From: an uncultured Eubacteriales bacterium
GTDB taxonomy: Bacteria; Bacillota; Clostridia; Christensenellales; UBA1242
Reading direction: 5' to 3'
DNA length: 64,000 nt
Assembly (NCBI GenBank): GCA_900551855.1
Contig: URXM01000006.1
Span: 3,185 to 67,184 of the forward strand
Shown: piece by piece, positions 27,606 to 52,397 of the stretch
How the letters are laid out: every line of letters begins with the position of its first letter
How positions within the stretch are numbered: position 1 is the first letter of the stretch
Notes under the pieces: generated by a model
Database searches by the model: none
What the model was told of the DNA's origin: nothing
What the model saw: the letters and a program-made list of their open reading frames with translations, nothing else
Translations under genes and position numbers: made by a program

Positions 27606-29342
27606 TTAAAATTTTTTAGATTTAACTTCATCTTTAAGTCTGGCAATAAAGTCATCAAGTTTAAGACCTGATGCATTTTCAAAACCACGACCACGAATAG
27701 AAATTGTGTTGTTCTTTTCTTCTTCATCTCCAACAATGATAAGATAAGGTATTTTCATAGAAAGAGCTTCACGGATCTTATATCCAATCTTTTCGTTTCT
27801 GTCATCAAGTTCAACTCTTATGCCTTCATCAAAAAGAGTATCTTTGATTTTCTTAGCATAATCATTGTTTCTGTCTGTCAAAGTTAAAACCTTAACTTGA
27901 ACAGGAGCGAGCCAAAGTGGGAAAGCACCTGCAAAGTGTTCAATCAAAATACCCAAAAATCTTTCCAAAGATCCATAAATAACTCTGTGGATCATAATTG
28001 GGCGATGTTTTTCACCATCTTCGCCAACATATTCAAGTTCAAAGCGTTGTGGAAGTTGGAAGTCAAGTTGAATAGTTCCGCATTGCCAAGTTCTTCCGAT
28101 AGCATCTGTCAAATGGAAGTCAATCTTTGGTCCATAGAAAGCACCATCGCCTTCATTGATCACATAATCAAGTCCAAGTTCGTCAAGAGCGTCTTTCAAA
28201 GCGTTTGTTGCCATTTCCCAATCTTCATCACTTCCCATACTGTTGTCAGGACGAGTAGAAAGTTCTACATGATACTTAAATTTGAATGTCTTGTAAACTT
28301 CATCAATAAGTGAAACAACATTTTTGATTTCGCCTTTGATTTGACTTGGAGTCATAAAGATGTGAGCATCATCTTGTGTGAAGCAACGAACTCTCATAAG
28401 TCCACCAAGTTCGCCTGATTTTTCGTGTCTGTGAACAAGACCAAGTTCGCCAAGTCTTAAAGGCAAATCACGATAAGAATGTGGAGAGTTTTTGTAAACC
28501 AAAATTCCACCTGGGCAGTTCATAGGTTTGATAGCAAAATCAACATCATCGATTTTTGTTGTATACATATTGTCTTTATAGTGATCCCAGTGCCCTGAAG
28601 TTTCCCAAAGATGACGAGAAAGCATTATAGGTGTTGAAATTTCATCATAACCTGCTTTTCTGTGAATTTCGTGCCAATAATCAATCAAAAGATTTCTAAC
28701 AATCATTCCGTTTGGAAGATAGAATGGAAATCCTGGACCTTCTGGAGAAATCATGAAAAGTTTAAGTTCCTTTCCAAGTTTTCTGTGATCTCTCTTCTTT
28801 GCTTCTTCAAGCATAGTGATATGTTCGTTTAATTGCTTTTTGTCAGGATAAGCATAAACATAAACTCTTTGAAGCATTTTGTTCTTTTCGTTTCCTCTCC
28901 AATATGCTCCATTTACAGAGTGAATCTTAAAAGCATAGTTTTGCAAATTCTTACTGCTTTCAACATGAGGTCCACTGCAAAGGTCAAAGAAGTCATCGCC
29001 TGTATAATACAAAGATATAACAGCTTCTTTTGGAAGTTCGTTGATGATTTCTGTTTTATATTCGTTTCCTTTAAAAAGTTTCAAAGCTTCTTCTCTTGAA
29101 ACTTCTTTTCTTACAAAAGGTTCTCCCTTGTTGATGATTTCCTTCATCTTCTTTTCAATGGCAGGAAAATGATCTGGTGTCAATTGTTCGTCCAAATCAA
29201 CATCATAATAAAAACCATCTTCAATCGCTGGTCCTATTGTAAGTTTTGTGCTTGGGTAAAGCTGCATCAAAGCTTTTGCCAAAATGTGCGCAAGAGAATG
29301 TCTTGCTCTGTGTAATTTTTCATCTTTTTCAATAATTTCCAT
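27606..29342 (-). CDS. thrS: threonine--tRNA ligase (lacks the N-terminal TGS domain)
   Basis: MEIIEKDEKLHRARHSLAHILAKAL... begins at the editing-domain HxxxH motif and is preceded by AAGGAGA. Class II motifs are present. The 19 extra codons in the ORF track overlap the T-box terminator. Confidence 0.92.
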   Translation of the reverse strand: MEIIEKDEKLHRARHSLAHILAKALMQLYPSTKLTIGPAIEDGFYYDVDLDEQLTPDHFPAIEKKMKEIINKGEPFVRKEVSREEALKLFKGNEYKTEIINELPKEAVISLYYTGDDFFDLCSGPHVESSKNLQNYAFKIHSVNGAYWRGNEKNKMLQRVYVYAYPDKKQLNEHITMLEEAKKRDHRKLGKELKLFMISPEGPGFPFYLPNGMIVRNLLIDYWHEIHRKAGYDEISTPIMLSRHLWETSGHWDHYKDNMYTTKIDDVDFAIKPMNCPGGILVYKNSPHSYRDLPLRLGELGLVHRHEKSGELGGLMRVRCFTQDDAHIFMTPSQIKGEIKNVVSLIDEVYKTFKFKYHVELSTRPDNSMGSDEDWEMATNALKDALDELGLDYVINEGDGAFYGPKIDFHLTDAIGRTWQCGTIQLDFQLPQRFELEYVGEDGEKHRPIMIHRVIYGSLERFLGILIEHFAGAFPLWLAPVQVKVLTLTDRNNDYAKKIKDTLFDEGIRVELDDRNEKIGYKIREALSMKIPYLIIVGDEEEKNNTISIRGRGFENASGLKLDDFIARLKDEVKSKKF

Positions 29343-29351
29343 TTCAAATTC

Positions 29352-29590
29352 TCCTTTTGTTCTTGCATTTGAAAACAAAAAAATCGTTCTCAAAAACAAG
29401 ATTAACTTGAATTTAAGGACGATTTAACAACCGTGGTTCCACCTTAATTGCACACAAATGTGTGCCACTCTTTTTAAGTGTGTATCTTCAAACATAAAAG
29501 TGGTTTCATTTTTGATATGCTAAGATTTTTCACCAACCAATCTTTCTCTGAGCGCAAGTTTTCAAAAACTACTTGTCTTTTACTAAATAC
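29352..29590 (-). promoter_or_regulatory. T-box riboswitch leader of thrS (candidate ACC Thr specifier)
   Basis: The minus strand reads AATTAAGGTGGAACCACGGTTG (29428..29449), matching the T-box consensus AAnnnGGGTGGtACCgCG. It is preceded by the stem III hairpin GCACACA-TTT-GTGTGC. A long terminator helix (AAATCGTCC...GAACGATTT) with a T-run follows. The stem I region has AGAGA and GGTGAAA, and GAA-ACC-A sits in the expected specifier position (ggt at 29502..29504 on the plus strand). Confidence 0.85.
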
Positions 29591-37323: not shown

Positions 37324-37338
37324 CAAAAAAATTTAAAA

Positions 37339-37368
37339 CAAAAAACACCAATTAAGGTGTTTTTTTGT
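37339..37368. terminator. bidirectional terminator between the GDPD gene and glmS
   Basis: Hairpin aaaaacacc-aattaa-ggtgttttt followed by a T-run. Confidence 0.65.
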
Positions 37369-37394
37369 TGCAAAACTTAAAAGTCACATTTTTG

Positions 37395-41183: not shown

Positions 41184-41212
41184 TTGACAAGAACGATAAT
41201 GTGTTGTATAAT
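41184..41212 (+). promoter_or_regulatory. consensus sigma-A promoter of tRNA-Lys
   Basis: TTGACA (41184..41189), a 17-nt spacer and TATAAT (41207..41212), about 40 nt upstream of the tRNA. Confidence 0.75.
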
Positions 41213-41251: not shown

Positions 41252-41327
41252 GGGTTGCTAGCTCAGTTGGTAGAGCATTCGACTCTTAATCGAAGGGTCC
41301 GGGGTTCGAGCCCCCGGCAACCCACCA
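41252..41327 (+). tRNA. tRNA-Lys (anticodon CTT), CCA encoded
   Basis: The cloverleaf folds by hand. Acceptor GGGTTGC/GCAACCC, D arm GCTC-AGTTGGTA-GAGC, anticodon arm TTCGA-CTCTTAA-TCGAA, T arm CGGGG-TTCGAGC-CCCCG, discriminator A plus CCA. Confidence 0.95.
41317..41327 (+). repeat. left copy of the 11-bp direct repeat GCAACCCACCA (tRNA-Lys 3' end; attL-like)
   Basis: An identical 11-mer recurs at 49565..49575. The match extends to 15/16 if the next 5 nt are included (tacaa vs aacaa). Confidence 0.6.
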
Positions 41328-41404
41328 TACAATATCTTGTTTAAAGGAATTTTTTATAACTAATTTTTGATTAAAATAGTCTAATTAAAAATAAAAAATG
41401 TACA

Positions 41405-41449
41405 AAAAATAACTGGGGATTATTTATCATATATTTCCAGTTATTTTTT
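41405..41449 (-). terminator. terminator downstream of the helicase operon
   Basis: aaaaataactgg ... ccagttattttt with a 12-bp stem and a 21-nt loop. A T-run follows on the minus strand. Confidence 0.5.
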
Positions 41450-41532
41450 TTCATTTCAAAATCTTTCTTTATCACTTTTCTTTATTTATCATAAGATTTC
41501 AGCATAATTAAACTTTTCTCTAAAAATATATT

Positions 41533-44500
41533 TTATGACAATAACCATGTTAAATATTCCTTTGCCCAGCCTCTTGACATAGTATCATGATATGCTTGAT
41601 TATCATAATTTCTTAAACAACCATAACAACAAGTTTCTTCACCACAACCACATCTTCCATCTACTTTTCTTAATGCTTCAACTAAAATTTCTTTTATATG
41701 TCCTAACATTCTTTTTACATGTCCCGCTCCATTTGGAACAGTATCAAATAATGTAATACTAAAACCATTAGTATCTCCATTTTCCCATATGGCACCACCA
41801 ATTTCTCTTCTATCTATTTCCATAAACTTTGATGCTCCTTCAATTATAGCATAAAGTATAGACTCAAATTCTGCCATAGGATTTTTATATTGGGGCAAAT
41901 GCAAGACCAAAGCATCAGACATAAAATGATGCCCTAAATAACAACTCACTAACTTTCCTGCGCAAGGGAAATTGTTCGCAGTTCTATGCTCATGTGATAT
42001 TGTCCCATTTTTTGTCAAACTAAGTTGAACATAACCACATTTTTCACAAATATTAAATGCTAATCCTATATTTCTATTTTTAGAAGCATATTTCCCTCTG
42101 TTAATAACAAACATTTCTCCATGTGGAGAATAAATAGAATGTATAACTTTACCTTTTAAGACTATATCATTTTCTTCAATTTTAGCATTTTTTTCAAATC
42201 CATTAAAAAATGTCTCTGAAAAATATTTAACTTCATCTTTTAATTTTACAGATTCTTTATCAGAATCCTTTGTGATAAAACCAAATTGTGGAATAACCAT
42301 TTGCTTATATTTTAGTGTTCTATGACAGCAAGTTTGCTCTCTATTAAGACTTTCTACTCCTAGTGCTGTTTTATAAAAATATATTTTCCCACAACTTTCA
42401 CATATAGCAAAATCATAAGTAGGCCATTCTCTATTAGGTTGTTTCTTTAAAGCATAAGGTTTCCAAAATTTTCCATTTGCAACAACTTGACTCCCTGGAG
42501 CATATTCAGTAATCGCCATCCTCAAATCTCTGTTTAAATCTATTGAACTTTTAACAATATCACTTGTGTTCAAATCTAATGGAACAACATATACAGGGAA
42601 ACCATATCTTGGAAGAACATTATTTTCTGCTAAAAATGAAATATAATCTTTTGAATTATATGTTCCAATCAATTTTTTTAATTTTCCTGCTTCAGAATAT
42701 TTCTTTTCTGCAGAGTATTTTTCTTCTGCATTTGATAATTCATTCATGGAAGCTTCAAAATTATTGATTGCATTATCTAAACAAGCATCTTCATTATTAG
42801 GATTATTGTTATCAACCAATTTCTTAACAAATGACCAATCATTATCAACACCAAGTTCTTTCTTTATCTTTTCTGGAACAATAATATTGATTGATTTAAA
42901 AAGATCTTGTGGTTTTTTGCTCAAAATATTATATAATTCGATGTTCAAATTAGGATGGTTATCATGTGCCAATAAGTCTTTCACAGATTTAAAATTGTAT
43001 CCTATATAACTTAAATAACTAAAAATAACTGAATGAATGTGTCTTCTAACAAGATAGGCATTATTTAACTCTATATAAGGAGCCTGTATAATGCCATTAA
43101 TCATCTTGACAGGATCATTATAATAAGTTAAATCGTGTGATCTTCTCTTTGCAAAAGTTAATATAAAAGCAGCTGATGAACCTCTTCTTCCTGCACGCCC
43201 AGCCCTCTGGATATAATTAGATGTTTCTGGAGGAACATTTCTCAAAACGACAGACTCAAGAGAACCAATATCAACCCCCATTTCAAATGTTGTTGAACAA
43301 CTTAATATATTAACTTCATTTTCTTTGAAATGTTTTTGTAAATCAGTTGCTGTTTGACTTGAAATTTGTGCTGTATGCTCTTTTGCATTCATAGGAATTA
43401 GTTGAATATTTGAAAAACTTTGACGATAATAATCACCTCTATCTTCATTCTCGCTTATTTCAATTAAATTTCCATCGCAATTTGTCTTTGTACAAATCCC
43501 AAAAAGGTTGATTTTTACAGTTTCTCCACATTTATTGCATACATAAAGTTTACCCTTTTGTTTTTCAAAAGATATATTATCCAACCTTAACTGATAATAC
43601 CCATTTACTTTATCTTGAATTAAAATTGGTAACTTTACAACAAAATAATTTTCTTTAAATGATGTTGAAAGTTCATCAAGAAATTTTAGAGATTTTTCAT
43701 TGCTTTCTTCTTGATTAAGGCCTTTATGTTCAAAGAAATGTTGTAAATAGTTTAAACGACTATTTGTTCTTTTGTCAGAAGGCTTAAATCCAAAAACTTG
43801 ATAATCTTTTCCTCTCTCTCCTCCTTGAGTTTTAAAATATGCATTTCTATTTTTCGGTTCAAAAGCATCATCTGTTGGACTAACACCTTCTGGAAATTGC
43901 ACACAACCTTGTCTTCTTAAACTGTCAAACAACACATAAATTATATTAAGGAGCTCATCTTTTGAAATTTCATATTTGTTACAAAAATGATTAATAATTT
44001 GACTATCAATTTTATCCAAGGAATTTATTTTAATATTTATCATACCCAGTCTATTTAAAGACATTCTTGGATCCAATTCAATAATCTCTTGCATGATGTG
44101 TTGCTTAGCAATACTTTTTTTATCATCGTCATTATTTATATCATAGAATAATTTATGTTCATTTGCTATTCTGAAACATCTTTCTGATAACAAATTAAAA
44201 CTTATAGACTCTTCAGTCATATCTTTAATAACATTATAAATAATATTTTTCCACAACCAATCGTTATATCTGTTTTGTATAAAAATTGCAAATTTGGCAG
44301 CATCTTGCCTATTGTCTGAAAACACTAATAATTTTCTGCCATTTATAATTTCATCTTCTGAATTACATACACTTCCCCAAATGCTATCCGTTTTTGTTTC
44401 TTCCTTTTTAGTTTTTTCTTCAGGCAATAATTGGTAAAGTTTTCGTGTTAACATTTCTGTTGCAGAATCTTCACTAGTAGTAAGTTTTCTTATAGTTCCT

Positions 44501-46269
44501 TTATTAAACTTCCCACATTTATAGCAGTTATTTTTTCTTGCTTTTTTAGGAATTTTTGTCATTTTTATAAAGTTAGCAGCCTCTATTCCACAACAAGAAA
44601 TAGTATCTGGAATTTTTGCAGCAAAAAGTTTTCCACACTTAGGGCACATAACATATTCTTGCTTATCTTCTTTTGAATAAGAAAATTCATCTAATGAATC
44701 ATCTTCATCAATTGAAATCTCTCCATCTGATAAAGAAAGCATAAATAAATACTCATCATTATCTTCGGTTGGTATAAGATATTCTTCGCCATTTATCACA
44801 TCAACAGAACCAACTATATATTCTTGTCCACATTTCATACAATTTAATAATTCATAAACTTTATATCCATTATACTCTTTTTTCCTATTAGTAAAGATTT
44901 TTATATCATCAGCAAATGTAATAAATCCTCCTTCCAATGTCCTTGCAAAAACATGATATTTAGCATTTATTAAAGGATTCCCATCAGTTGGCGAAATCGC
45001 TTCTCCACATAGTTCAATAATTTTTGCTATTGTATCTTCTAAACCTGTATCTGTAATTTTTAAATCATTTTTTAATTCATCTGACAATTCTTGAATAGTT
45101 ATTGTTTTTTCCAAAATTCTTTTTCTTATTTCATAAACGAGTTTGTCTTTTGACAAAATATTATATAATTTTGAAGCCTTATCATCTTTGTTATAATTTT
45201 GATATTCAGAAAAAAGTTGTTGGTAATAAGACAAATCTTTAATCTGTCCAGAGACTTCCAATAATGGCAATCTATCAGATTGAATAATTGAATTTTTATC
45301 AAAATATTCATTAAATAAATCTTTTGCAAAATCTACAACTTTTTCAATTTCACCTTCTTCTCCACCAAGTGTAGCACTTGTCCCGATACAAGTTAAACAA
45401 TTATCAATTTTTCCAAAAACTGTTTCTTTCAATCGTCTTATCAACATCGCGACTTCTGTTCCATGTGCACCTTTGTATGTATGTGCTTCGTCTAAAACAA
45501 GAAATTTAAATTTGTTACTATACTTTCCTTTAAAAATTTTTTGGCTTGTTGCTCTTAAAAGCATATATTCTAACATTGCATAGTTTGTAATAAGAATATG
45601 TGGTGGTCGAGCTTCCATTTCAGCACGGGTTAACAATTCATTTTCTAAAGCATCGCTACCATTCACTCTTTTATATTCTTCATTCGCTTCTTTTCTTCCT
45701 TTTTTGATATTATCTCTATTGCCTTCTGGAGTCTCTCCAATATATCTGCCAAAGGTTATTTGTGACAAATTTTTTAAAGATTTCCTTAACCTCCCAATTT
45801 GGTCATTTGCTAATGCATTCATCGGATATATTAAAAGAGCTCTAACACCTGGTGATAAGGTATTATTATCAAATTCATTAAGCAATTCATTTATTATTGG
45901 TATAAAGAAGCATTCTGTTTTACCAGAACCAGTTCCAGATGCAACAATTATACTTCTGTTATTATTTACCAATTTTATAGCTTTTTCTTGATGATTATAT
46001 CTTTTATAAACGGCATATTCGTCATAAGTGAAAGCATTTTTAATATTTTTGTTTAACACACCTTCTTCAACCAATTCTTGTAATGTATGAGTCCCTTTAT
46101 ATGGCATTGTTGCCTGTATAAATGGTCCTTTTAGCAATTGACATTCTTTAGACAAAGCATCTTTTGCAGCTTTGTTTATTTTGTCATTTCTAAAGGTAAA
46201 CTGTGCGTCAAGAAAGTCTTTATATGCTTCGTTTAATTGGTTAAATGTTTTTATTGGGTCTAGTGCCAT
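41533..46269 (-). CDS. large DEAH-box SF2 helicase with zinc-ribbon insertions and a C-terminal DUF1998/MZB domain (DruE/MrfA-like)
   Basis: Helicase motifs are I ASGTGSGKTE, Ia LLIYPMNALANDQ, II LVLDEAHTYKG, III GTSATL, V TTFEMGVDIG and VI QRAGRAGRRG. CxxC pairs are CMKC, CPKC, CYKC, CNKC..C..C, CESC and CEKC. The C-terminus reads GRCGCGEETCCYGCLRNYDNQAYHD. AAGGAGA lies 7 nt upstream of the ATG. Confidence 0.9.
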   Translation of the reverse strand: MALDPIKTFNQLNEAYKDFLDAQFTFRNDKINKAAKDALSKECQLLKGPFIQATMPYKGTHTLQELVEEGVLNKNIKNAFTYDEYAVYKRYNHQEKAIKLVNNNRSIIVASGTGSGKTECFFIPIINELLNEFDNNTLSPGVRALLIYPMNALANDQIGRLRKSLKNLSQITFGRYIGETPEGNRDNIKKGRKEANEEYKRVNGSDALENELLTRAEMEARPPHILITNYAMLEYMLLRATSQKIFKGKYSNKFKFLVLDEAHTYKGAHGTEVAMLIRRLKETVFGKIDNCLTCIGTSATLGGEEGEIEKVVDFAKDLFNEYFDKNSIIQSDRLPLLEVSGQIKDLSYYQQLFSEYQNYNKDDKASKLYNILSKDKLVYEIRKRILEKTITIQELSDELKNDLKITDTGLEDTIAKIIELCGEAISPTDGNPLINAKYHVFARTLEGGFITFADDIKIFTNRKKEYNGYKVYELLNCMKCGQEYIVGSVDVINGEEYLIPTEDNDEYLFMLSLSDGEISIDEDDSLDEFSYSKEDKQEYVMCPKCGKLFAAKIPDTISCCGIEAANFIKMTKIPKKARKNNCYKCGKFNKGTIRKLTTSEDSATEMLTRKLYQLLPEEKTKKEETKTDSIWGSVCNSEDEIINGRKLLVFSDNRQDAAKFAIFIQNRYNDWLWKNIIYNVIKDMTEESISFNLLSERCFRIANEHKLFYDINNDDDKKSIAKQHIMQEIIELDPRMSLNRLGMINIKINSLDKIDSQIINHFCNKYEISKDELLNIIYVLFDSLRRQGCVQFPEGVSPTDDAFEPKNRNAYFKTQGGERGKDYQVFGFKPSDKRTNSRLNYLQHFFEHKGLNQEESNEKSLKFLDELSTSFKENYFVVKLPILIQDKVNGYYQLRLDNISFEKQKGKLYVCNKCGETVKINLFGICTKTNCDGNLIEISENEDRGDYYRQSFSNIQLIPMNAKEHTAQISSQTATDLQKHFKENEVNILSCSTTFEMGVDIGSLESVVLRNVPPETSNYIQRAGRAGRRGSSAAFILTFAKRRSHDLTYYNDPVKMINGIIQAPYIELNNAYLVRRHIHSVIFSYLSYIGYNFKSVKDLLAHDNHPNLNIELYNILSKKPQDLFKSINIIVPEKIKKELGVDNDWSFVKKLVDNNNPNNEDACLDNAINNFEASMNELSNAEEKYSAEKKYSEAGKLKKLIGTYNSKDYISFLAENNVLPRYGFPVYVVPLDLNTSDIVKSSIDLNRDLRMAITEYAPGSQVVANGKFWKPYALKKQPNREWPTYDFAICESCGKIYFYKTALGVESLNREQTCCHRTLKYKQMVIPQFGFITKDSDKESVKLKDEVKYFSETFFNGFEKNAKIEENDIVLKGKVIHSIYSPHGEMFVINRGKYASKNRNIGLAFNICEKCGYVQLSLTKNGTISHEHRTANNFPCAGKLVSCYLGHHFMSDALVLHLPQYKNPMAEFESILYAIIEGASKFMEIDRREIGGAIWENGDTNGFSITLFDTVPNGAGHVKRMLGHIKEILVEALRKVDGRCGCGEETCCYGCLRNYDNQAYHDTMSRGWAKEYLTWLLS

Positions 46270-46271
46270 TT

Positions 46272-49200
46272 TTATATCTCCTTTTTATATGATGATTGAT
46301 TTAACATTTCAGAAAGCAAAGCTTTTGAAAAATCTTTCAACAAATTTTTTATATATTTTGATACTTTTACAAATAAAGAAATATTGTTTTGTATATCGTG
46401 TTGATTTAATATCAAATCAACTATAATCATCAAAATTTGTTTTTCTTCTTTGAATTTTGAAAACTCAGGAATCGCTTTAATCTTCTTCATTTTTTGTTTA
46501 ATATAGTCAACATTATCTACATCTGGGAATAGATAATATTTTTTTGCCCACATAAAATTTTCTTTATCTGTAAAGGTGTCTAAAATTTTCAAATTGTTAT
46601 TTGTTATTTCTTCTAAAAGTTCAACATTATTTTTTAAACAAATATATACGATGTAAAGGTATTTATTATAGTCCAACAATTCTATAAAAACTCTTCTATC
46701 CATTAAATTTTCTTTTTTAGTTATTGGAACATATAGAAATAATTCATTCGTTATTTTATCAAATTGTTCTTTACTTAAATCATATTGAAACAATAGTTTT
46801 AATATAATCTCATCTCCAAAGTGAAATCTATTTTTAAAAATATATTTTAGTAAATATTTTATAACCTTCAAATATTCTTCGTTCGACTGAAAAAAGTTAG
46901 TATTAAATCTATAAAATAAATAACAATAAACAGCATTATTTAAATCATCTATGTTGTCGTCTTGAAATGCTAATTGTGAAAAATCATTATCTTTAACCCA
47001 CAAAATAGTAGTATTTTTGCTATCAATTAGATCTTTTTTCTCATTTGTCGAAAAAATACTATTTTCTTTATTACTTACTATTTCAACAACACAATTATCT
47101 ACAAGTCTTTCATCATTATCATCTATATAAGCCATTAAATTATCATCTTTAATTGGTATAGAAAAGAATTTATATGGCTTTGACAAATATCTAAAAACCA
47201 TTTGTCTATTTTTGCAAGAGCCATCTTCATCCCATTGAAATATATATGTATTGCCTAATTTATTTAAAAAAAAGTTTCTTATAGATATATTAATTCTAAT
47301 CTCGCAAATTTCACAAATCTTATCAAAATTTTCTTCAATTGAAATCAAACACGAATTCTCTCCTGAACATATAAATTCGATATATTCCACAAGATTAATA
47401 ACTGTTTTTGAAGATTTTCTTATTCTTAAGGATTTTTGATTAACATTGTTGTTAAACCTTACATATATGTCGGAATTTGTATTATTAGTAATAGTTAGAA
47501 GGCAATCTCCATCAATTTTTAAATCTTTAACTGATAAAAATGCTTTTTTATTTGGTTGTCCAAATAATTTGTTATTTGATTCAATTATCCATTTATATGG
47601 CTTAATAATAAATTTGAATTTATACTCCTTCTCATTATAAACATAATATCCGTTAAAAATATCACAAGAACTTGGTATATTTACTCTGTTTATTATTTCA
47701 TGATTGCTATCTAATATTTTACATTTATCACGTGATTTAAAAATTATATATGAATTTTTGTATCCACTAACTCCTGGATAATATTGACTAAAATCAATAT
47801 TAACTGCAGGTAAATATAAAAATTTAAATGTCTTATATCCAATCTCTGGAAAGTAAAATCTTAATCCTATTTTCCCAAAACTTAATCTTCCAATATAATT
47901 TGACATGTCAAAAACAAAATTTTCAATAACAACTTCTTCATCTATAATTTTATTTTCATCTACACTGATTTTTACTTGCCATTGACCGTTAAAAGGGACC
48001 TCTATTTTCGGCAACAAACTAAATGCTTCCAACCCTTCAAAATAGCAGTTATCGCTTATTAATTTGTTATCACTTATTAATTCAAAAGGTCTTTTAATCT
48101 TTATGTTAAAAGTATCTAGATTTGATTTAAATATAACTTCTCTTTTGTCAGTTGTTGGTGCTTGATAGTAAACATTGTAGCCATTATAAACGCCTATTAG
48201 TTCTATAGTATTGTCATCTGTTTTGTAATTTCCATCAAGTAAAATATATGCTCCATTGTTTAAAATAAATTTTGATTTGTTAAGTTGTCCAAAATTGTTA
48301 AAAGTTAAATACTTATCGTTTTTATCCTTTAAAGTATATTCGCATAATAGAGTGTTAATATCATTTAATAATCTTAATTTAATTTCATCAAATTGATTAA
48401 GAATTATGGTTGAAGTTCTAAAGAAATATTCATCGTTTAACTTCTCACCATAAATTTTTCTATAACCTACTTTATCACCACTATAAACTTCCCAAATACA
48501 AAAAGCAGTATCCTTCATTGTCATTTCAGGTGTATCTATAACAACTTTATTGCTATTTATATCAAATCTCAATGTTAGTTTTTTATATCTTGAAGATATA
48601 TATCTATTATCATTATCTTTTCTATTATTACACCAATTTATGATTCCTTTTTGAAAAGGTATTGGCAGGATTGAAGTTTCATTTATAATCTCAATTTTAT
48701 CTTTAATTGCACTAATAATTTCAAAAACAAAATCACTCAATAATCCATTTTTGTTTAATAAGTCAATATATCTTTTTACATTTTTAGTGGAATATCTAAA
48801 TACATATAATGTTTCATCAGCTAAATTATTATACGAAATTTCTTGTAACATTAATGGTTCTAAATTGTCCAAAAAATTATTAATAAGGTTATTTGGTAAC
48901 CCAGAATGAGCAATTATTGGAGCAAGATTTTTATAGCTATCTTCTTTTAAATTTTGAAAACTACTCAAATTATAAATGGAAATTGTTCTATCAAATGCTT
49001 TTATCAACAATTCTCTTTTGTTTGGTTGTGAGATATTTGTCAGTCTTTCTACAGCCTGCCAAAATCCACCTTCTCTATCATTATAAAAATATTTTGCAAT
49101 GCCAACAAGAAAGATTGTTATTGTTTCTTTTATATCATAGACTTGTTCCCATGACATATAATTTGCAATCTGAGATAATTTTTTACCAATCTCAATTGTC

Positions 49201-49295
49201 TCTTCTTGTGAAAAAAGCACCTTTTCAATCAACTCATAATTTTCAAGTCTTGAAAGTCTATCTTTGCAAATCTGGTTTATTTCTGCTAAATCCAT
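46272..49295 (-). CDS. 1007-aa protein of unknown function, first gene of the helicase operon (possible DruH-like partner)
   Basis: Long uninterrupted ORF. I could see no Walker, nuclease, HNH, PLD or TM motif. The ends look helical and the middle looks beta-rich. Its stop codon lies 2 nt before the helicase ATG. Confidence 0.85.
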   Translation of the reverse strand: MDLAEINQICKDRLSRLENYELIEKVLFSQEETIEIGKKLSQIANYMSWEQVYDIKETITIFLVGIAKYFYNDREGGFWQAVERLTNISQPNKRELLIKAFDRTISIYNLSSFQNLKEDSYKNLAPIIAHSGLPNNLINNFLDNLEPLMLQEISYNNLADETLYVFRYSTKNVKRYIDLLNKNGLLSDFVFEIISAIKDKIEIINETSILPIPFQKGIINWCNNRKDNDNRYISSRYKKLTLRFDINSNKVVIDTPEMTMKDTAFCIWEVYSGDKVGYRKIYGEKLNDEYFFRTSTIILNQFDEIKLRLLNDINTLLCEYTLKDKNDKYLTFNNFGQLNKSKFILNNGAYILLDGNYKTDDNTIELIGVYNGYNVYYQAPTTDKREVIFKSNLDTFNIKIKRPFELISDNKLISDNCYFEGLEAFSLLPKIEVPFNGQWQVKISVDENKIIDEEVVIENFVFDMSNYIGRLSFGKIGLRFYFPEIGYKTFKFLYLPAVNIDFSQYYPGVSGYKNSYIIFKSRDKCKILDSNHEIINRVNIPSSCDIFNGYYVYNEKEYKFKFIIKPYKWIIESNNKLFGQPNKKAFLSVKDLKIDGDCLLTITNNTNSDIYVRFNNNVNQKSLRIRKSSKTVINLVEYIEFICSGENSCLISIEENFDKICEICEIRINISIRNFFLNKLGNTYIFQWDEDGSCKNRQMVFRYLSKPYKFFSIPIKDDNLMAYIDDNDERLVDNCVVEIVSNKENSIFSTNEKKDLIDSKNTTILWVKDNDFSQLAFQDDNIDDLNNAVYCYLFYRFNTNFFQSNEEYLKVIKYLLKYIFKNRFHFGDEIILKLLFQYDLSKEQFDKITNELFLYVPITKKENLMDRRVFIELLDYNKYLYIVYICLKNNVELLEEITNNNLKILDTFTDKENFMWAKKYYLFPDVDNVDYIKQKMKKIKAIPEFSKFKEEKQILMIIVDLILNQHDIQNNISLFVKVSKYIKNLLKDFSKALLSEMLNQSSYKKEI

Positions 49296-49386
49296 ATCAA
49301 AATTTCCCTTTGCTTTTGTATTAACTTAATTATGATAATAATACTATTAACATTATCAAAATTCATTTCTATATTGTATATAGTAT

Positions 49387-49395
49387 ATTATAGCA
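49387..49395 (-). promoter_or_regulatory. candidate extended -10 (TGcTATAAT) for the island operon
   Basis: The minus strand reads tgcTATAAT about 92 nt upstream of the ATG at 49295. The -35 is weak (TATAAC). Confidence 0.35.
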
Positions 49396-49455
49396 TACTT
49401 TTCCTTAATGTTATAAAATATTTTACAAAATTTACTTGTTTATTTTTTCTTTTTT

Positions 49456-49464
49456 CCCCCCCCC
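49456..49464. repeat. C9 (G9 on the operon strand) homopolymer tract
   Basis: tattttttcttttttCCCCCCCCCagtg. It is the only long G:C homopolymer I noticed in the window. Confidence 0.9.
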
Positions 49465-49564
49465 AGTGTAGAAAATAATAGATTTAAAAAAGTACAGATA
49501 TAAAATGACACTAAAAAGTTCCAAAGTCACCTCTTACTAGAGCTATTCTGGAGTCAGAATACAT

Positions 49565-49575
49565 GCAACCCACCA
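49565..49575 (+). repeat. right copy of the 11-bp direct repeat GCAACCCACCA (attR-like)
   Basis: Identical to 41317..41327. The terminator hairpin at 49582..49610 follows immediately. Confidence 0.6.
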
Positions 49576-49579
49576 AACA

Positions 49580-49616
49580 AAAAGGAAGTTGTTTTTTTTG
49601 CAACTTCCTTTTTTAT
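49580..49616. terminator. bidirectional terminator (HD gene; ancestral tRNA-Lys terminator?)
   Basis: Hairpin aaggaagttg-ttttttttg-caacttcctt with a 10-bp perfect stem, an A-run upstream and a T-run downstream. Confidence 0.7.
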
Positions 49617-49622
49617 TTTGTC

Positions 49623-50330
49623 TTAATCAAATTTTAATAAATATACATACATCTCAAAAGCAAATAAAACAATTCTTTTGGCAGTATTAGTTCTTAACAT
49701 ATCAATTTGAATCTTAGGATAAGGCAACCTTACTCTATCTAGTCCATCAGCATCTTTTAAAAGATTAAATAACTTTTTGCACTTATTTTTATCTTTAACT
49801 TTATAAATTTCAATATACTTATCTATCTCACTATCATTCATACAATGACAGGCAACAATAGTTTTCATTAAATTCAATTCTTCTTCATTATAATCAATTA
49901 AAAAATCAAATTTACTCGCACTTTTAAGCCCATGTTTATAATCCACACAGTCATCTGTTCTTCCAATATCGTGATATTTAGCACAATCTATCAACATTTC
50001 AAATTCTCTCATTGATATATCTTCAAAATTTGCTAAAATATACGCAAAAATAGAAACTCTTATATTATGATTTATTCCATGCATATTGCTCTTATATAAT
50101 TTTTCTGGTTGTATATTTTTTATTTTTTGTATAAATTGTTCTTTAAATTTAGAGCTTTCAAAAATGTGTGATATTTGTTCTTTAGTTATAGGGATTATTC
50201 CCATCTTTTTTAAATCTTGTTTTGTCTCAACATAATAATTGTAAAGATAATCGTTTGTTGTAATTTTAAATAATTTATTACAATTAACTAAATCATCTAT
50301 AATTTCATCTATATTTGATAACAAATCCAT
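49623..50330 (-). CDS. HD-domain phosphohydrolase-family protein
   Basis: Contains HGINHNIRV, AKYHDIGR and LKDADGLDR, giving the H...HD...D metal-ligand pattern. Confidence 0.75.
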   Translation of the reverse strand: MDLLSNIDEIIDDLVNCNKLFKITTNDYLYNYYVETKQDLKKMGIIPITKEQISHIFESSKFKEQFIQKIKNIQPEKLYKSNMHGINHNIRVSIFAYILANFEDISMREFEMLIDCAKYHDIGRTDDCVDYKHGLKSASKFDFLIDYNEEELNLMKTIVACHCMNDSEIDKYIEIYKVKDKNKCKKLFNLLKDADGLDRVRLPYPKIQIDMLRTNTAKRIVLFAFEMYVYLLKFD

Positions 50331-52313: not shown

Positions 52314-52397
52314 ACCAAAAAATTATTATTACAATCAAAATTTTATTGTTTTTCAATTTTAAATTACATTCCTTTAAACTTATCAAAGCCATAATAA

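What the first reader, a model, noticed from the sequence alone, without database searches (positions are those of the whole stretch)
41317..49616. Integrase-less ~8.2 kb island inserted at the 3' end of tRNA-Lys(CTT), bounded by an 11-bp direct repeat
GCAACCCACCA is the last 7 nt of the acceptor stem, the discriminator base and the CCA of tRNA-Lys. It occurs at 41317-41327 and again at 49565-49575, and the match is 15/16 if extended by 5 nt. The second copy is followed at once by a strong terminator hairpin (49582-49610). Before an insertion, that hairpin would have sat directly behind the tRNA.

The intervening DNA holds only the helicase operon. It looks clearly more AT-rich in my hand counts of a few 60-nt lines: 18-25% GC inside versus 37-47% in alr and PFOR.

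tRNA 3' ends are classical attB sites for integrative elements. No integrase, excisionase or transposase ORF is visible, so this is either a decayed element or one mobilised in trans.
Basis: partly seen in the sequence, partly recalled or inferred. Interest (0 to 1): 0.7.

Follow-up and report, generated by a model that had tools for sequence, protein, structure and literature searches.

The report
Integrase-less Druantia island at tRNA-Lys
An 8.2-kb piece of foreign DNA carrying a two-gene anti-phage system (Druantia type III-like) sits at the 3' end of a lysine tRNA gene that is a busy docking site for mobile elements; it has lost (or never had) its own integrase, which is a common fate for such islands.

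Summary
tRNA-Lys(CTT) lies at 41252-41327. GCAACCCACCA occurs only at 41317 and 49565. Three conspecific contigs show the predicted empty site, with the tRNA followed directly by the terminator and the next gene. The insertion is 8,248 bp, 94% coding and 26.8% GC against 32.3% elsewhere, and it has no recombinase.

The cargo is a druH-like/druE operon. DruE scores E 1e-187 in PADLOC and lacks PLD nuclease domains, so it resembles Druantia III-B. The 1007-aa partner has the DruH layout (helical, Ig-like array, helical), but no DruH model detects it.

Three findings are new:
- The 11-mer is the intact tail of a 45-nt degenerate copy of the tRNA 3' half, starting exactly at the anticodon loop.
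- A 90%-identical cassette elsewhere loses homology at that same loop.
- In five other samples the same tRNA carries a 12.25-kb integrase-bearing, inovirus-like element with a perfect 46-bp repeat starting at that point.

The island is therefore a non-autonomous descendant of a tRNA-Lys-integrating element in an attachment hotspot. How the present junction formed is unresolved. Candidates are a trans-acting integrase at the T/acceptor junction, homology-facilitated illegitimate recombination, or old insertion with a refreshed flank. This is a known kind of island with a moderately unusual cargo.

The parts
41184..41212 (+). Consensus sigma-70-type promoter (TTGACA-17-TATAAT) in front of tRNA-Lys
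   Evidence: 12/12 match. It is present unchanged in empty-site strains.
41252..41327 (+). tRNA-Lys(CTT), the intact target gene (attL side)
   Evidence: Found by ARAGORN and by Rfam at 69 bits. It is identical in empty-site contigs.
41317..41327 (+). Direct repeat copy 1. It covers tRNA positions 66-76: the 3' acceptor strand, the discriminator base and CCA.
   Evidence: It starts exactly at the T-stem/acceptor junction.
41328..41532 (.). Left non-coding end of the island. It includes a bidirectional terminator hairpin at about 41404-41449.
   Evidence: The hairpin folds at -18.3 kcal/mol (z -6.9) on the + strand and -16.3 kcal/mol (z -4.8) on the - strand, each followed by a T run. Positions 41328-41500 have no counterpart in the related cassette L010.
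41533..46269 (-). druE-like gene, 1578 aa. It encodes a YprA-family SF2 helicase with a C-terminal MZB zinc domain and no PLD nuclease domains.
   Evidence: PADLOC DruE1 1.3e-187 and DruE3 1.2e-168. Pfam DEAD, Helicase_C and MZB at 1473-1552. The DEAH and QRAGRAGR motifs are intact, and dN/dS is 0.07 against the L010 copy.
46272..49295 (-). druH-like partner gene, 1007 aa. It lies upstream of druE with a 2-nt gap.
   Evidence: No Pfam, PADLOC, NCBIfam or PDB sequence hit. Only 8 homologues were found, and wherever the downstream gene was readable it was a DruE-like helicase (about 1578 aa where complete). The AF2 model (pLDDT 76) shows helical, Ig-like array and helical regions. dN/dS is 0.16.
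49296..49498 (-). Operon promoter region. Candidate -35/-10 elements lie at 49414-49387, and a C9/G9 homopolymer lies at 49457-49465.
   Evidence: One search gives a consensus match only. The proximal ~155 nt are conserved with L010, but the homopolymer is not.
49499..49530 (+). Conserved element-side arm next to the attachment core (TATAAAATGACACTAAAAAGTTCCAAAGTCAC)
   Evidence: It is nearly identical to L010/L011 (one mismatch and one 4-nt indel), while the adjoining spacer does not align. The homology stops at the anticodon-loop sequence.
49531..49575 (+). Degenerate displaced tRNA-Lys 3' half (positions 32-76, anticodon loop to CCA), interpreted as an attR relic
   Evidence: It aligns without gaps at 27/45, with the first 6 and last 11 nt exact. 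The upstream 34 nt match at 16/34 in register, p about 7e-4. The mismatches are 13 S>W against 4 W>S.
49565..49575 (+). Direct repeat copy 2 (GCAACCCACCA)
49579..49613 (+). Displaced terminator of tRNA-Lys. It directly follows the tRNA in empty-site strains.
49623..50330 (-). It is not part of the island.
   Evidence: It is present next to the tRNA in empty-site contigs. It has only a sub-threshold HDIG hit.

Best explanation
Positions 41328-49575 are an accessory island of 8,248 bp. In this strain it interrupts the normal arrangement of tRNA-Lys(CTT), terminator and next gene.

**Cargo.** The island carries one operon with its own promoter and terminator. It encodes a compact Druantia type III-like anti-phage system. 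One gene is a 1578-aa DruE helicase (SF2 core plus MZB zinc domain, no PLD nuclease, as in subtype III-B). The other is a 1007-aa DruH-like partner built from a helical domain, an array of Ig-like domains and a second helical domain. By analogy with studied Druantia III, the partner would sense phage DNA with exposed single strands, and DruE would unwind or clear replication intermediates. This function is inferred, not shown.

**Origin.** The island encodes no recombinase. Its right end still has the anatomy of an attR made by a tyrosine integrase that crosses over in the anticodon loop: a conserved element arm, then CTCTTA, then a tRNA 3' half in exact register. That half is heavily decayed towards A/T except for its last 11 nt. 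The island therefore descends from an integrase-borne element that targeted tRNA-Lys and has lost its integration module. This makes it CIME-like.

**Arrival (inferred).** The 34 decayed nucleotides must have arrived with the cassette, because the flank immediately after the 11-mer is identical to that of empty-site strains. The last joining event therefore happened inside the 11-bp identity, which begins exactly at the T-stem/acceptor junction. I consider a trans-acting integrase using that junction subsite the most likely agent (about 0.4). Homology-facilitated illegitimate recombination is the next most likely.

**Present state.** The island is non-autonomous. Excision through the loop sites would fuse the decayed half to the tRNA and destroy it.
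For: **Insertion polymorphism**
- Empty sites in L001, L003 and L004 match the filled site base for base up to the repeat.
- The flanks are 98.9-99.6% identical to empty-site strains, and the first 766 bp to the right show no differences.

**Foreign composition**

**Cargo**
- DruE.
- The two-gene pairing recurs in unrelated neighbourhoods.
- Both genes are under purifying selection, with dN/dS 0.07 and 0.16.
- The partner's fold layout matches the cryo-EM description of DruH: a globular N-terminal domain, six Ig-like subdomains and a C-terminal domain (10.64898/2026.05.12.722862).
- III-B is described as DruH plus a compact DruE lacking PLDs (10.64898/2026.05.13.724758; PMC12458937).

**Attachment relic**
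- The 45-nt in-register pseudo-copy is shown.
- The L010/L011 cassette, 90% identical, has a 20/21 match to tRNA-Lys positions 32-52 at the same boundary. Homology to the window ends at CTCTTA.

**Hotspot with anticodon-loop crossover**
- A 12,254-bp integrase element with a perfect 46-bp repeat (tRNA positions 31-76) occupies the same site in five samples.

**No recombinase in the island**
-.

**Known crossover subsites**
- Islander lists three: the anticodon loop, the T loop and the T/acceptor junction (PMC4383910).
Against: - No integrase acting on the 11-mer was found. The only integrase seen at this site has different arm sequences (TTGACGACCATTTT repeats), which are absent from the island.
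- No arm-type repeats are shared between the island's two ends.
- No circular junction and no second copy of either end was found in the public collections searched.
- An 11-bp identity is short for a tRNA att repeat.
- The partner protein has no detectable sequence similarity to DruH models. It also shows none to the partner of the nearest plasmid-borne DruE. Its DruH status therefore rests on gene order, size and predicted fold only.
- Defence activity is untested.
Confidence: 0.7

Rival explanations
1. Homology-facilitated illegitimate recombination. Linear DNA came from another lineage in which an old, integrase-less Druantia element already sat at tRNA-Lys. It recombined through the conserved tRNA or left flank on one side. 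On the other side it used only the 11-bp identity between the donor's decayed attR and the recipient's tRNA 3' end. No site-specific recombinase was involved in the last step.
For: - The decayed 34 nt must have arrived with the cassette, and the join lies inside the only short identity available.
- The register of the pseudo-copy is kept, as expected if it aligned with the real tRNA end.
- The left flank carries about 1% differences, including alleles private to this strain, while the right flank has none over 766 bp.
- No integrase and no arm sites are present.
- The island's GC content resembles the lower-GC flanks of the related copy L010.
Against: - The left edge of the identity coincides exactly with the T-stem/acceptor junction, a known integrase crossover subsite (PMC4383910). 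This mechanism does not predict that.
- No donor configuration (tRNA, island, relic, then a different flank) was found.
- The SNP evidence rests on very few sites.
Confidence: 0.25
2. Old in-situ insertion. The Druantia element integrated long ago by an anticodon-loop crossover in an ancestor of this strain. It then lost its integrase and its displaced tRNA half decayed in place. Later, homologous recombination with empty-type strains refreshed the right flank up to the first point where homology resumed, which is the 11-mer.
For: - The attR has the anticodon-loop type of anatomy, and the decay is AT-biased, 13 S>W against 4 W>S.
- The species shows mosaic divergence along the flanks, consistent with frequent recombination.
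- Tandem and decayed elements are common at tRNA sites (PMC5704250, PMC12458937).
Against: - 18 of 34 positions decayed, yet the next 11 nt and 766 bp of flank show no change. This requires a conversion tract that ends precisely at the relic.
- The island is present in only 1 of 9 typed samples. The integrase-element strains have a pristine 46-bp attR with no Druantia relic.
- The pseudo-half is more decayed than the cassette's own synonymous divergence from L010 (dS 0.42) would predict.
Confidence: 0.15
3. The repeat is a target-site duplication made by a transposase, or a chance match next to DNA acquired some other way.
For: Short direct repeats flank many transposons, and no integrase is present.
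Against: - There are no terminal inverted repeats, no transposase and no DDE or HUH ORF.
- 11 bp is atypical for a target-site duplication.
- The repeat is the exact functional 3' end of the tRNA and lies in a 45-nt tRNA-like register.
- The chance expectation is 0.005 copies.
- The same tRNA is a proven integrase target.
Confidence: 0.03

Closest known systems
tRNA-integrated genomic islands as mapped by Islander (a regenerated tDNA plus a displaced 3' fragment)
   Same: There is an intact tRNA at one end and a direct-repeat 3' fragment at the other. The empty site is precise and the composition is foreign. Crossover subsites at the anticodon loop and at the T/acceptor junction are recognised (PMC4383910).
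   Different: There is no integrase gene. The displaced fragment is only 11 nt exact, within a 45-nt degenerate copy.
CIMEs (cis-mobilizable elements), meaning decayed ICEs or IMEs that keep attL and attR but have lost their integration and transfer genes (PMC5704250)
   Same: The island is flanked by att-derived repeats at a tRNA-Lys 3' end and has no recombination or transfer genes. The same site is used by an autonomous integrase-bearing element.
   Different: The resident autonomous element has unrelated arms and a different crossover point. The island's attR core is degenerate. Accretion or co-mobilisation has not been observed.
'Immobilised' defence islands at tRNA genes that carry Druantia III, described by Bell et al. 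(PMC12458937)
   Same: Druantia III-type cargo lies at a tRNA with direct repeats. Sequential use of the site by other elements and loss of the delivering recombinase are both seen.
   Different: Those are large multi-system E. coli islands with 16-20-nt repeats, often retaining integrase pseudogene vestiges. This island holds a single system in 8.2 kb, has no integrase vestige, and sits in an uncultured Clostridia-like host.
Druantia type III, subtype III-B (DruH plus a compact DruE)
   Same: The operon has two genes in druH-druE order. DruE has the SF2 core and the MZB domain and ends right after MZB, so it has no PLD domains. The partner is about 1000 aa and has an Ig-like array between two other domains.
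   Different: The partner is not recognised by PADLOC, Pfam or NCBIfam models. It belongs to a very small family: 8 homologues in 5.8 billion proteins, and 17 representatives below 1e-30.
Homology-facilitated illegitimate recombination, as described for naturally transformable bacteria (from my own knowledge, not checked here)
   Same: There is one long homologous anchor, and a microhomology join lies at the other end of the foreign DNA.
   Different: The microhomology here is itself an att relic and coincides with an integrase subsite. The host's competence is unknown.

Membership tests
tRNA-integrated genomic island (integrase-mediated) | Intact tRNA gene at one boundary | tested here: met
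   tRNA-Lys(CTT) lies at 41252-41327.
tRNA-integrated genomic island (integrase-mediated) | Displaced 3' tDNA fragment in direct orientation at the other boundary | tested here: met
   The fragment is 11 nt exact and unique in the window. It matches at 27/45 in register from the anticodon loop, with p about 7e-4 for the upstream 34 nt.
tRNA-integrated genomic island (integrase-mediated) | Precise empty site in close relatives | tested here: met
   L001, L003 and L004 show the tRNA followed directly by aacaaaaagg and the terminator.
tRNA-integrated genomic island (integrase-mediated) | Integrase (tyrosine or serine recombinase) gene inside the island | tested here: not met
   Two ORFs fill 94% of the island and neither is a recombinase. 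No catalytic motif lies in or near the island; the one box-II-like match in the 64 kb is in an unrelated 605-aa ORF at about 29.3 kb.
CIME (cis-mobilizable element) | Lacks integration and transfer genes | tested here: met
CIME (cis-mobilizable element) | Retains usable attL and attR | tested here: inconclusive
   The 11-bp core is identical (15/16 when extended), and a conserved arm block lies at 49499-49530. However, the loop-type core matches at only 6/7 and is followed by a decayed half. No arm repeats are shared between the two ends.
CIME (cis-mobilizable element) | A cognate autonomous element with matching att sites can mobilise it | tested here: not met
   The only autonomous element found at this tRNA has unrelated arms and a 46-bp repeat. 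The rest of the strain's genome could not be searched.
Druantia type III | DruE: a YprA-like SF2 helicase with an MZB/DUF1998 domain | tested here: met
   PADLOC DruE1 1.3e-187 and DruE3 1.2e-168. Pfam DEAD, Helicase_C and MZB.
Druantia type III | DruH encoded next to DruE in one operon | tested here: inconclusive
   Gene order, the 2-nt spacing, the size and the obligate pairing all fit. The AF2 layout matches the published description of DruH (10.64898/2026.05.12.722862). No DruH model or PDB sequence matches.
Druantia type III-A | C-terminal PLD nuclease domains in DruE | tested here: not met
   MZB ends at residue 1552 of 1578 and there is no PLD hit. This fits the compact III-B description (10.64898/2026.05.13.724758).
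Druantia type III | Protects against phage | not testable with these tools
   This needs cloning and phage challenge.
Transposon / insertion sequence | Transposase and terminal inverted repeats with a target-site duplication | tested here: not met
   There is no transposase ORF and no terminal inverted repeats.

The most novel reading that the evidence does not exclude
The island may be a still-mobile, minimal defence cassette consisting of a promoter, two genes, a terminator and att ends. It would carry no recombinase and would be moved in trans by an integrase that crosses over at the T-stem/acceptor junction of tRNA-Lys. The fossil anticodon-loop attR would then record a switch of integration subsite during the element's history. 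The selectively conserved 32-nt arm at 49499-49530 would be the binding site that keeps it recognisable.
Probability: 0.15. Interest if true: 0.6.

Novelty: new member of a known kind. Interest (0 to 1): 0.35.

Why it matters
The locus is a clean natural example of how a single anti-phage system is gained at a tRNA hotspot. Empty, island-bearing and prophage-bearing alleles all occur in one uncultured gut-type Clostridia-like species.

It shows that a short terminal repeat can be the last intact piece of a longer attachment site. That is useful when mapping decayed islands.

It also flags a small, divergent DruH-like family that current defence-finder models miss. Loci like this would be scored as an orphan DruE helicase rather than as a Druantia III system.

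Tried and rejected
**Searches that found nothing useful**
- The attL junction (GCAACCCACCATACAATATC) in 185,579 species genomes gave only a chance hit, inside a Methanoregula coding region.
- The conserved right-arm-plus-loop pattern had no match in JGI metagenomes.
- The flanking 235-aa protein in JGI metagenomes gave only two short contigs from an 82%-identical relative. These showed a different neighbour and were uninformative.
- Relatives of the DruH-like protein were absent from IMG/VR viral contigs, from plasmids and from PDB sequences.
- Foldseek against PDB returned only generic Ig-array proteins.

**Tests for recombination features**
- No arm-type or terminal repeats are shared by the two ends. 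Only AT-rich noise appeared.
- The arm motif of the 12.25-kb integrase element is absent from the window.
- The 314-aa and 152-aa ORFs downstream of druE in L010/L011 were checked as possible recombinases. They gave only a weak HTH hit and no integrase fragment at the contig ends.

**Other checks**
- The ~100-nt GC-rich stretch after the tRNA fragment in L010 has no credible Rfam match.
- A profile comparison with the partner of the Clostridium butyricum plasmid DruE was not significant.
- Distant profile hits (1160-1350 aa) were scanned for DruH. None matched, and one has a MzaA-like C-terminus.

**Rejected ideas**
- I rejected the idea that the last event was an anticodon-loop crossover. That would leave a perfect host 3' half at attR, as seen in L020.
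Full report
**Observation**

ARAGORN and Rfam place tRNA-Lys(CTT) at 41252-41327 on the + strand. The 11-mer GCAACCCACCA covers tRNA positions 66-76: the acceptor 3' strand, the discriminator base and CCA. It occurs at 41317-41327 and 49565-49575 and nowhere else in the 64 kb, even with one mismatch allowed. Base composition predicts 0.005 exact copies by chance.

The second copy is followed by a strong hairpin with a T run at 49579-49613 (-18.2 kcal/mol, z -6.1). Between the repeats lie two minus-strand ORFs, 41533-46269 (1578 aa) and 46272-49295 (1007 aa). They fill 94% of the 8,248 bp.

The island is 26.8% GC and the rest of the window 32.3%. No non-overlapping 8.2-kb window falls below 29.8%, and the two genes have among the lowest GC3 values in the window.

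**Empty site and hotspot**

I looked up contigs that encode exactly the same flanking 235-aa protein. A second assembly of the filled state (L002) is identical to the window. Flanks are 98.9-99.6% identical between filled and empty alleles. The first 766 bp to the right of the repeat show no differences at all, while the left flank differs by about 1%.

Five further samples carry a different occupant of the same site (L020+L023, L028, L021, L029, L005). It is a 12,254-bp element bounded by a perfect 46-bp repeat of tRNA positions 31-76, running from the anticodon loop to CCA. It encodes:
- a tyrosine integrase (Pfam 9e-16, PHROG_1 1e-49);
- a cI-like HTH protein;
- a replication initiator;
- a Zot-like protein.

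It is therefore probably an inovirus-like prophage. This tRNA is a true attachment hotspot, and integrases native to this species cross over in its anticodon loop.

**Anatomy of the island's ends**

The 45 nt ending at 49575 align without gaps to tRNA positions 32-76, with 27/45 identical. The first six nucleotides (CTCTTA, the anticodon loop) and the last eleven are exact. The 34 nt upstream of the 11-mer match at 16/34 in that fixed register, a level reached at only 7e-4 of window positions. The mismatches are 13 strong-to-weak against 4 weak-to-strong, as expected for a non-functional copy decaying in an AT-rich genome. Nothing upstream of the loop resembles the tRNA 5' half.

A related cassette in two other metagenome contigs (L010, L011) is 90.2% identical over window 41501-49452 and lies in an unrelated neighbourhood. 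At the same boundary it has a 20/21 match to tRNA-Lys positions 32-52. Between the two cassettes, the spacer upstream of the promoter does not align. By contrast, a 32-nt block (49499-49530) plus CTCTTA is nearly identical, and homology ends at the loop.

This is the signature of an attR: element arm, then crossover in the anticodon loop, then the displaced host tRNA half. The two cassettes carry different displaced halves, so they record different integration events by one element family.

The left end (41328-41532) holds only a bidirectional terminator hairpin. It has no counterpart in L010, where druE is followed by other small ORFs that are not recombinases. I found no arm-type repeats shared by the two ends and no terminal inverted repeats. 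A catalytic-motif scan of the 64 kb gave one box-II-like match, which I read as chance: it lies in a 605-aa ORF at about 29.3 kb, far from the island.

**How the present junction formed**

The flank immediately after the 11-mer is identical to that of empty-site strains. The 34 nt before it are half decayed. So the decayed part must have arrived with the cassette, and the last join lies within the 11-mer. The T/A difference one base beyond it fixes the right limit.

An anticodon-loop crossover is excluded for this last event, because it would leave a perfect host half, as in L020. Three routes remain:
- **(a) A trans-acting integrase.** Its crossover would lie at the T-stem/acceptor junction. 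The identity block starts exactly there, and Islander recognises that junction as one of three tRNA crossover subsites (PMC4383910).
- **(b) Homology-facilitated illegitimate recombination.** DNA from a lineage with an old, decayed element would have been anchored in the tRNA or left flank and joined through the 11-bp identity.
- **(c) Old in-situ insertion.** Later homologous recombination would have refreshed the right flank up to the relic.

I rate these at about 0.4, 0.25 and 0.15. None is shown.

Whichever applies, the island is non-autonomous. [quoted passage not shown] Excision through the loop sites would attach the decayed half to the tRNA and inactivate it.

**Cargo**

The 1578-aa protein matches PADLOC DruE models (DruE1 1.3e-187, DruE3 1.2e-168). 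It has DEAD, Helicase_C and a C-terminal MZB domain ending 26 residues before the stop, with no PLD nuclease. Its DEAH and motif VI sequences are intact.

The 1007-aa protein has no Pfam, PADLOC, NCBIfam or PDB sequence match. It has only eight homologues among 5.8 billion clustered proteins. Wherever the downstream gene was readable, it was a DruE-like helicase (about 1578 aa where complete), and the neighbourhoods around the pair differ. A profile search of 1.84 billion representatives found 112 hits, 17 of them below 1e-30.

Its AlphaFold model (pLDDT 76) has a helical N-terminal region (1-236), a run of beta-sandwich domains (240-770) and a helical C-terminal region (780-1007). Foldseek matches only Ig/FN3-array proteins. 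This is the layout reported for DruH by cryo-EM: a globular N-terminal domain, six Ig-like subdomains and a C-terminal domain (10.64898/2026.05.12.722862). Subtype III-B is described as DruH plus a compact DruE lacking PLDs (10.64898/2026.05.13.724758; PMC12458937).

Both genes are under purifying selection relative to the L010 copy (dN/dS 0.16 and 0.07, dS about 0.42). A Clostridium butyricum megaplasmid has the same two-gene arrangement with a 30%-identical DruE. Its partner is not detectably similar, so the partner evolves fast.

I file the cargo as Druantia III-B-like. DruE membership is met, and DruH membership is supported by context and fold but not by sequence. The mechanism is taken from the cited work on III-A systems and is inferred here: the partner senses exposed ssDNA, and DruE unwinds 3'-to-5'.

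**Host**

The host is an uncultured, low-GC, Clostridia-like bacterium. GlmS is 98% identical to unnamed metagenome proteins, and the nearest named relatives are Candidatus Caccovivens at 63%.

**Verdict**

It is an ordinary kind of object, a decayed defence island in a tRNA attachment hotspot. Three features are worth recording:
- the 11-bp repeat is the surviving tail of a 45-nt attachment site;
- three allelic states of the site coexist in one species;
- the DruH-like partner escapes current defence-system models.

Interest is moderate to low at 0.35. I class it as a new member of a known kind.

Noticed in passing
L020 10754-20708 plus L023 1-9569 (the same 87.7-kb contig); also L028, L021, L029 and L005: A 12,254-bp element is integrated in the same tRNA-Lys with a perfect 46-bp repeat. 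It encodes a tyrosine integrase, a cI-like HTH protein, a replication initiator and a Zot-like protein. TTGACGACCATTTT repeats lie at both ends. It is probably an inovirus-like prophage of an uncultured Clostridia-like host, and it was seen in five samples.
   Followed up: partly
window 49457-49465: A C9 homopolymer (G9 on the coding strand) lies about 45 bp upstream of the best candidate -35 element of the druH-like operon. It is absent from the 90%-identical L010 copy. It could be a phase-variable tract, but no length variation was examined.
   Followed up: no
window 37324-37394, compared with L023 13700-18776 and L001 14675-16195: There is a second variable spot between glmS and the GDPD gene. 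It is 71 bp in the window. In L023 it holds an AAA/M41-peptidase-like gene, a WYL regulator and a GmrSD type IV restriction enzyme. In L001 it holds a 506-aa Flg_new-domain ORF.
   Followed up: no
window 52322-52397, compared with L001 6520-7798: Other strains carry a 345-359-aa ORF of unknown function between the HSP20 and rubredoxin-like genes. It is missing from the window, so this is another small presence/absence polymorphism.
   Followed up: no
L010 9540-9640 (also L011): A stretch of about 100 nt at roughly 60% GC follows the tRNA-Lys fragment in otherwise 25% GC DNA. It has no credible Rfam match and its nature is unknown.
   Followed up: partly
window 29412-29588 (- strand): A T-box leader (Rfam RF00230, 100.6 bits) lies upstream of a 578-aa ORF at 27606-29342.
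   Followed up: no
P0103 (a distant profile hit of the DruH-like family): A 1345-aa protein shares the N-terminal region with the DruH-like family, and its C-terminus matches PADLOC MzaA (2e-46). This hints that the N-terminal module is reused in other defence systems.
   Followed up: no
Its only domain evidence is a sub-threshold HDIG hit (E 0.007).
   Followed up: partly
L012 8848-21693 (Clostridia MAG GCA_017467625.1): The most distant full-length homologue pair (36% identity) sits between a WYL regulator and several FtsK/SpoIIIE-domain genes. This may place it on a conjugative or mobilisable element.
   Followed up: no
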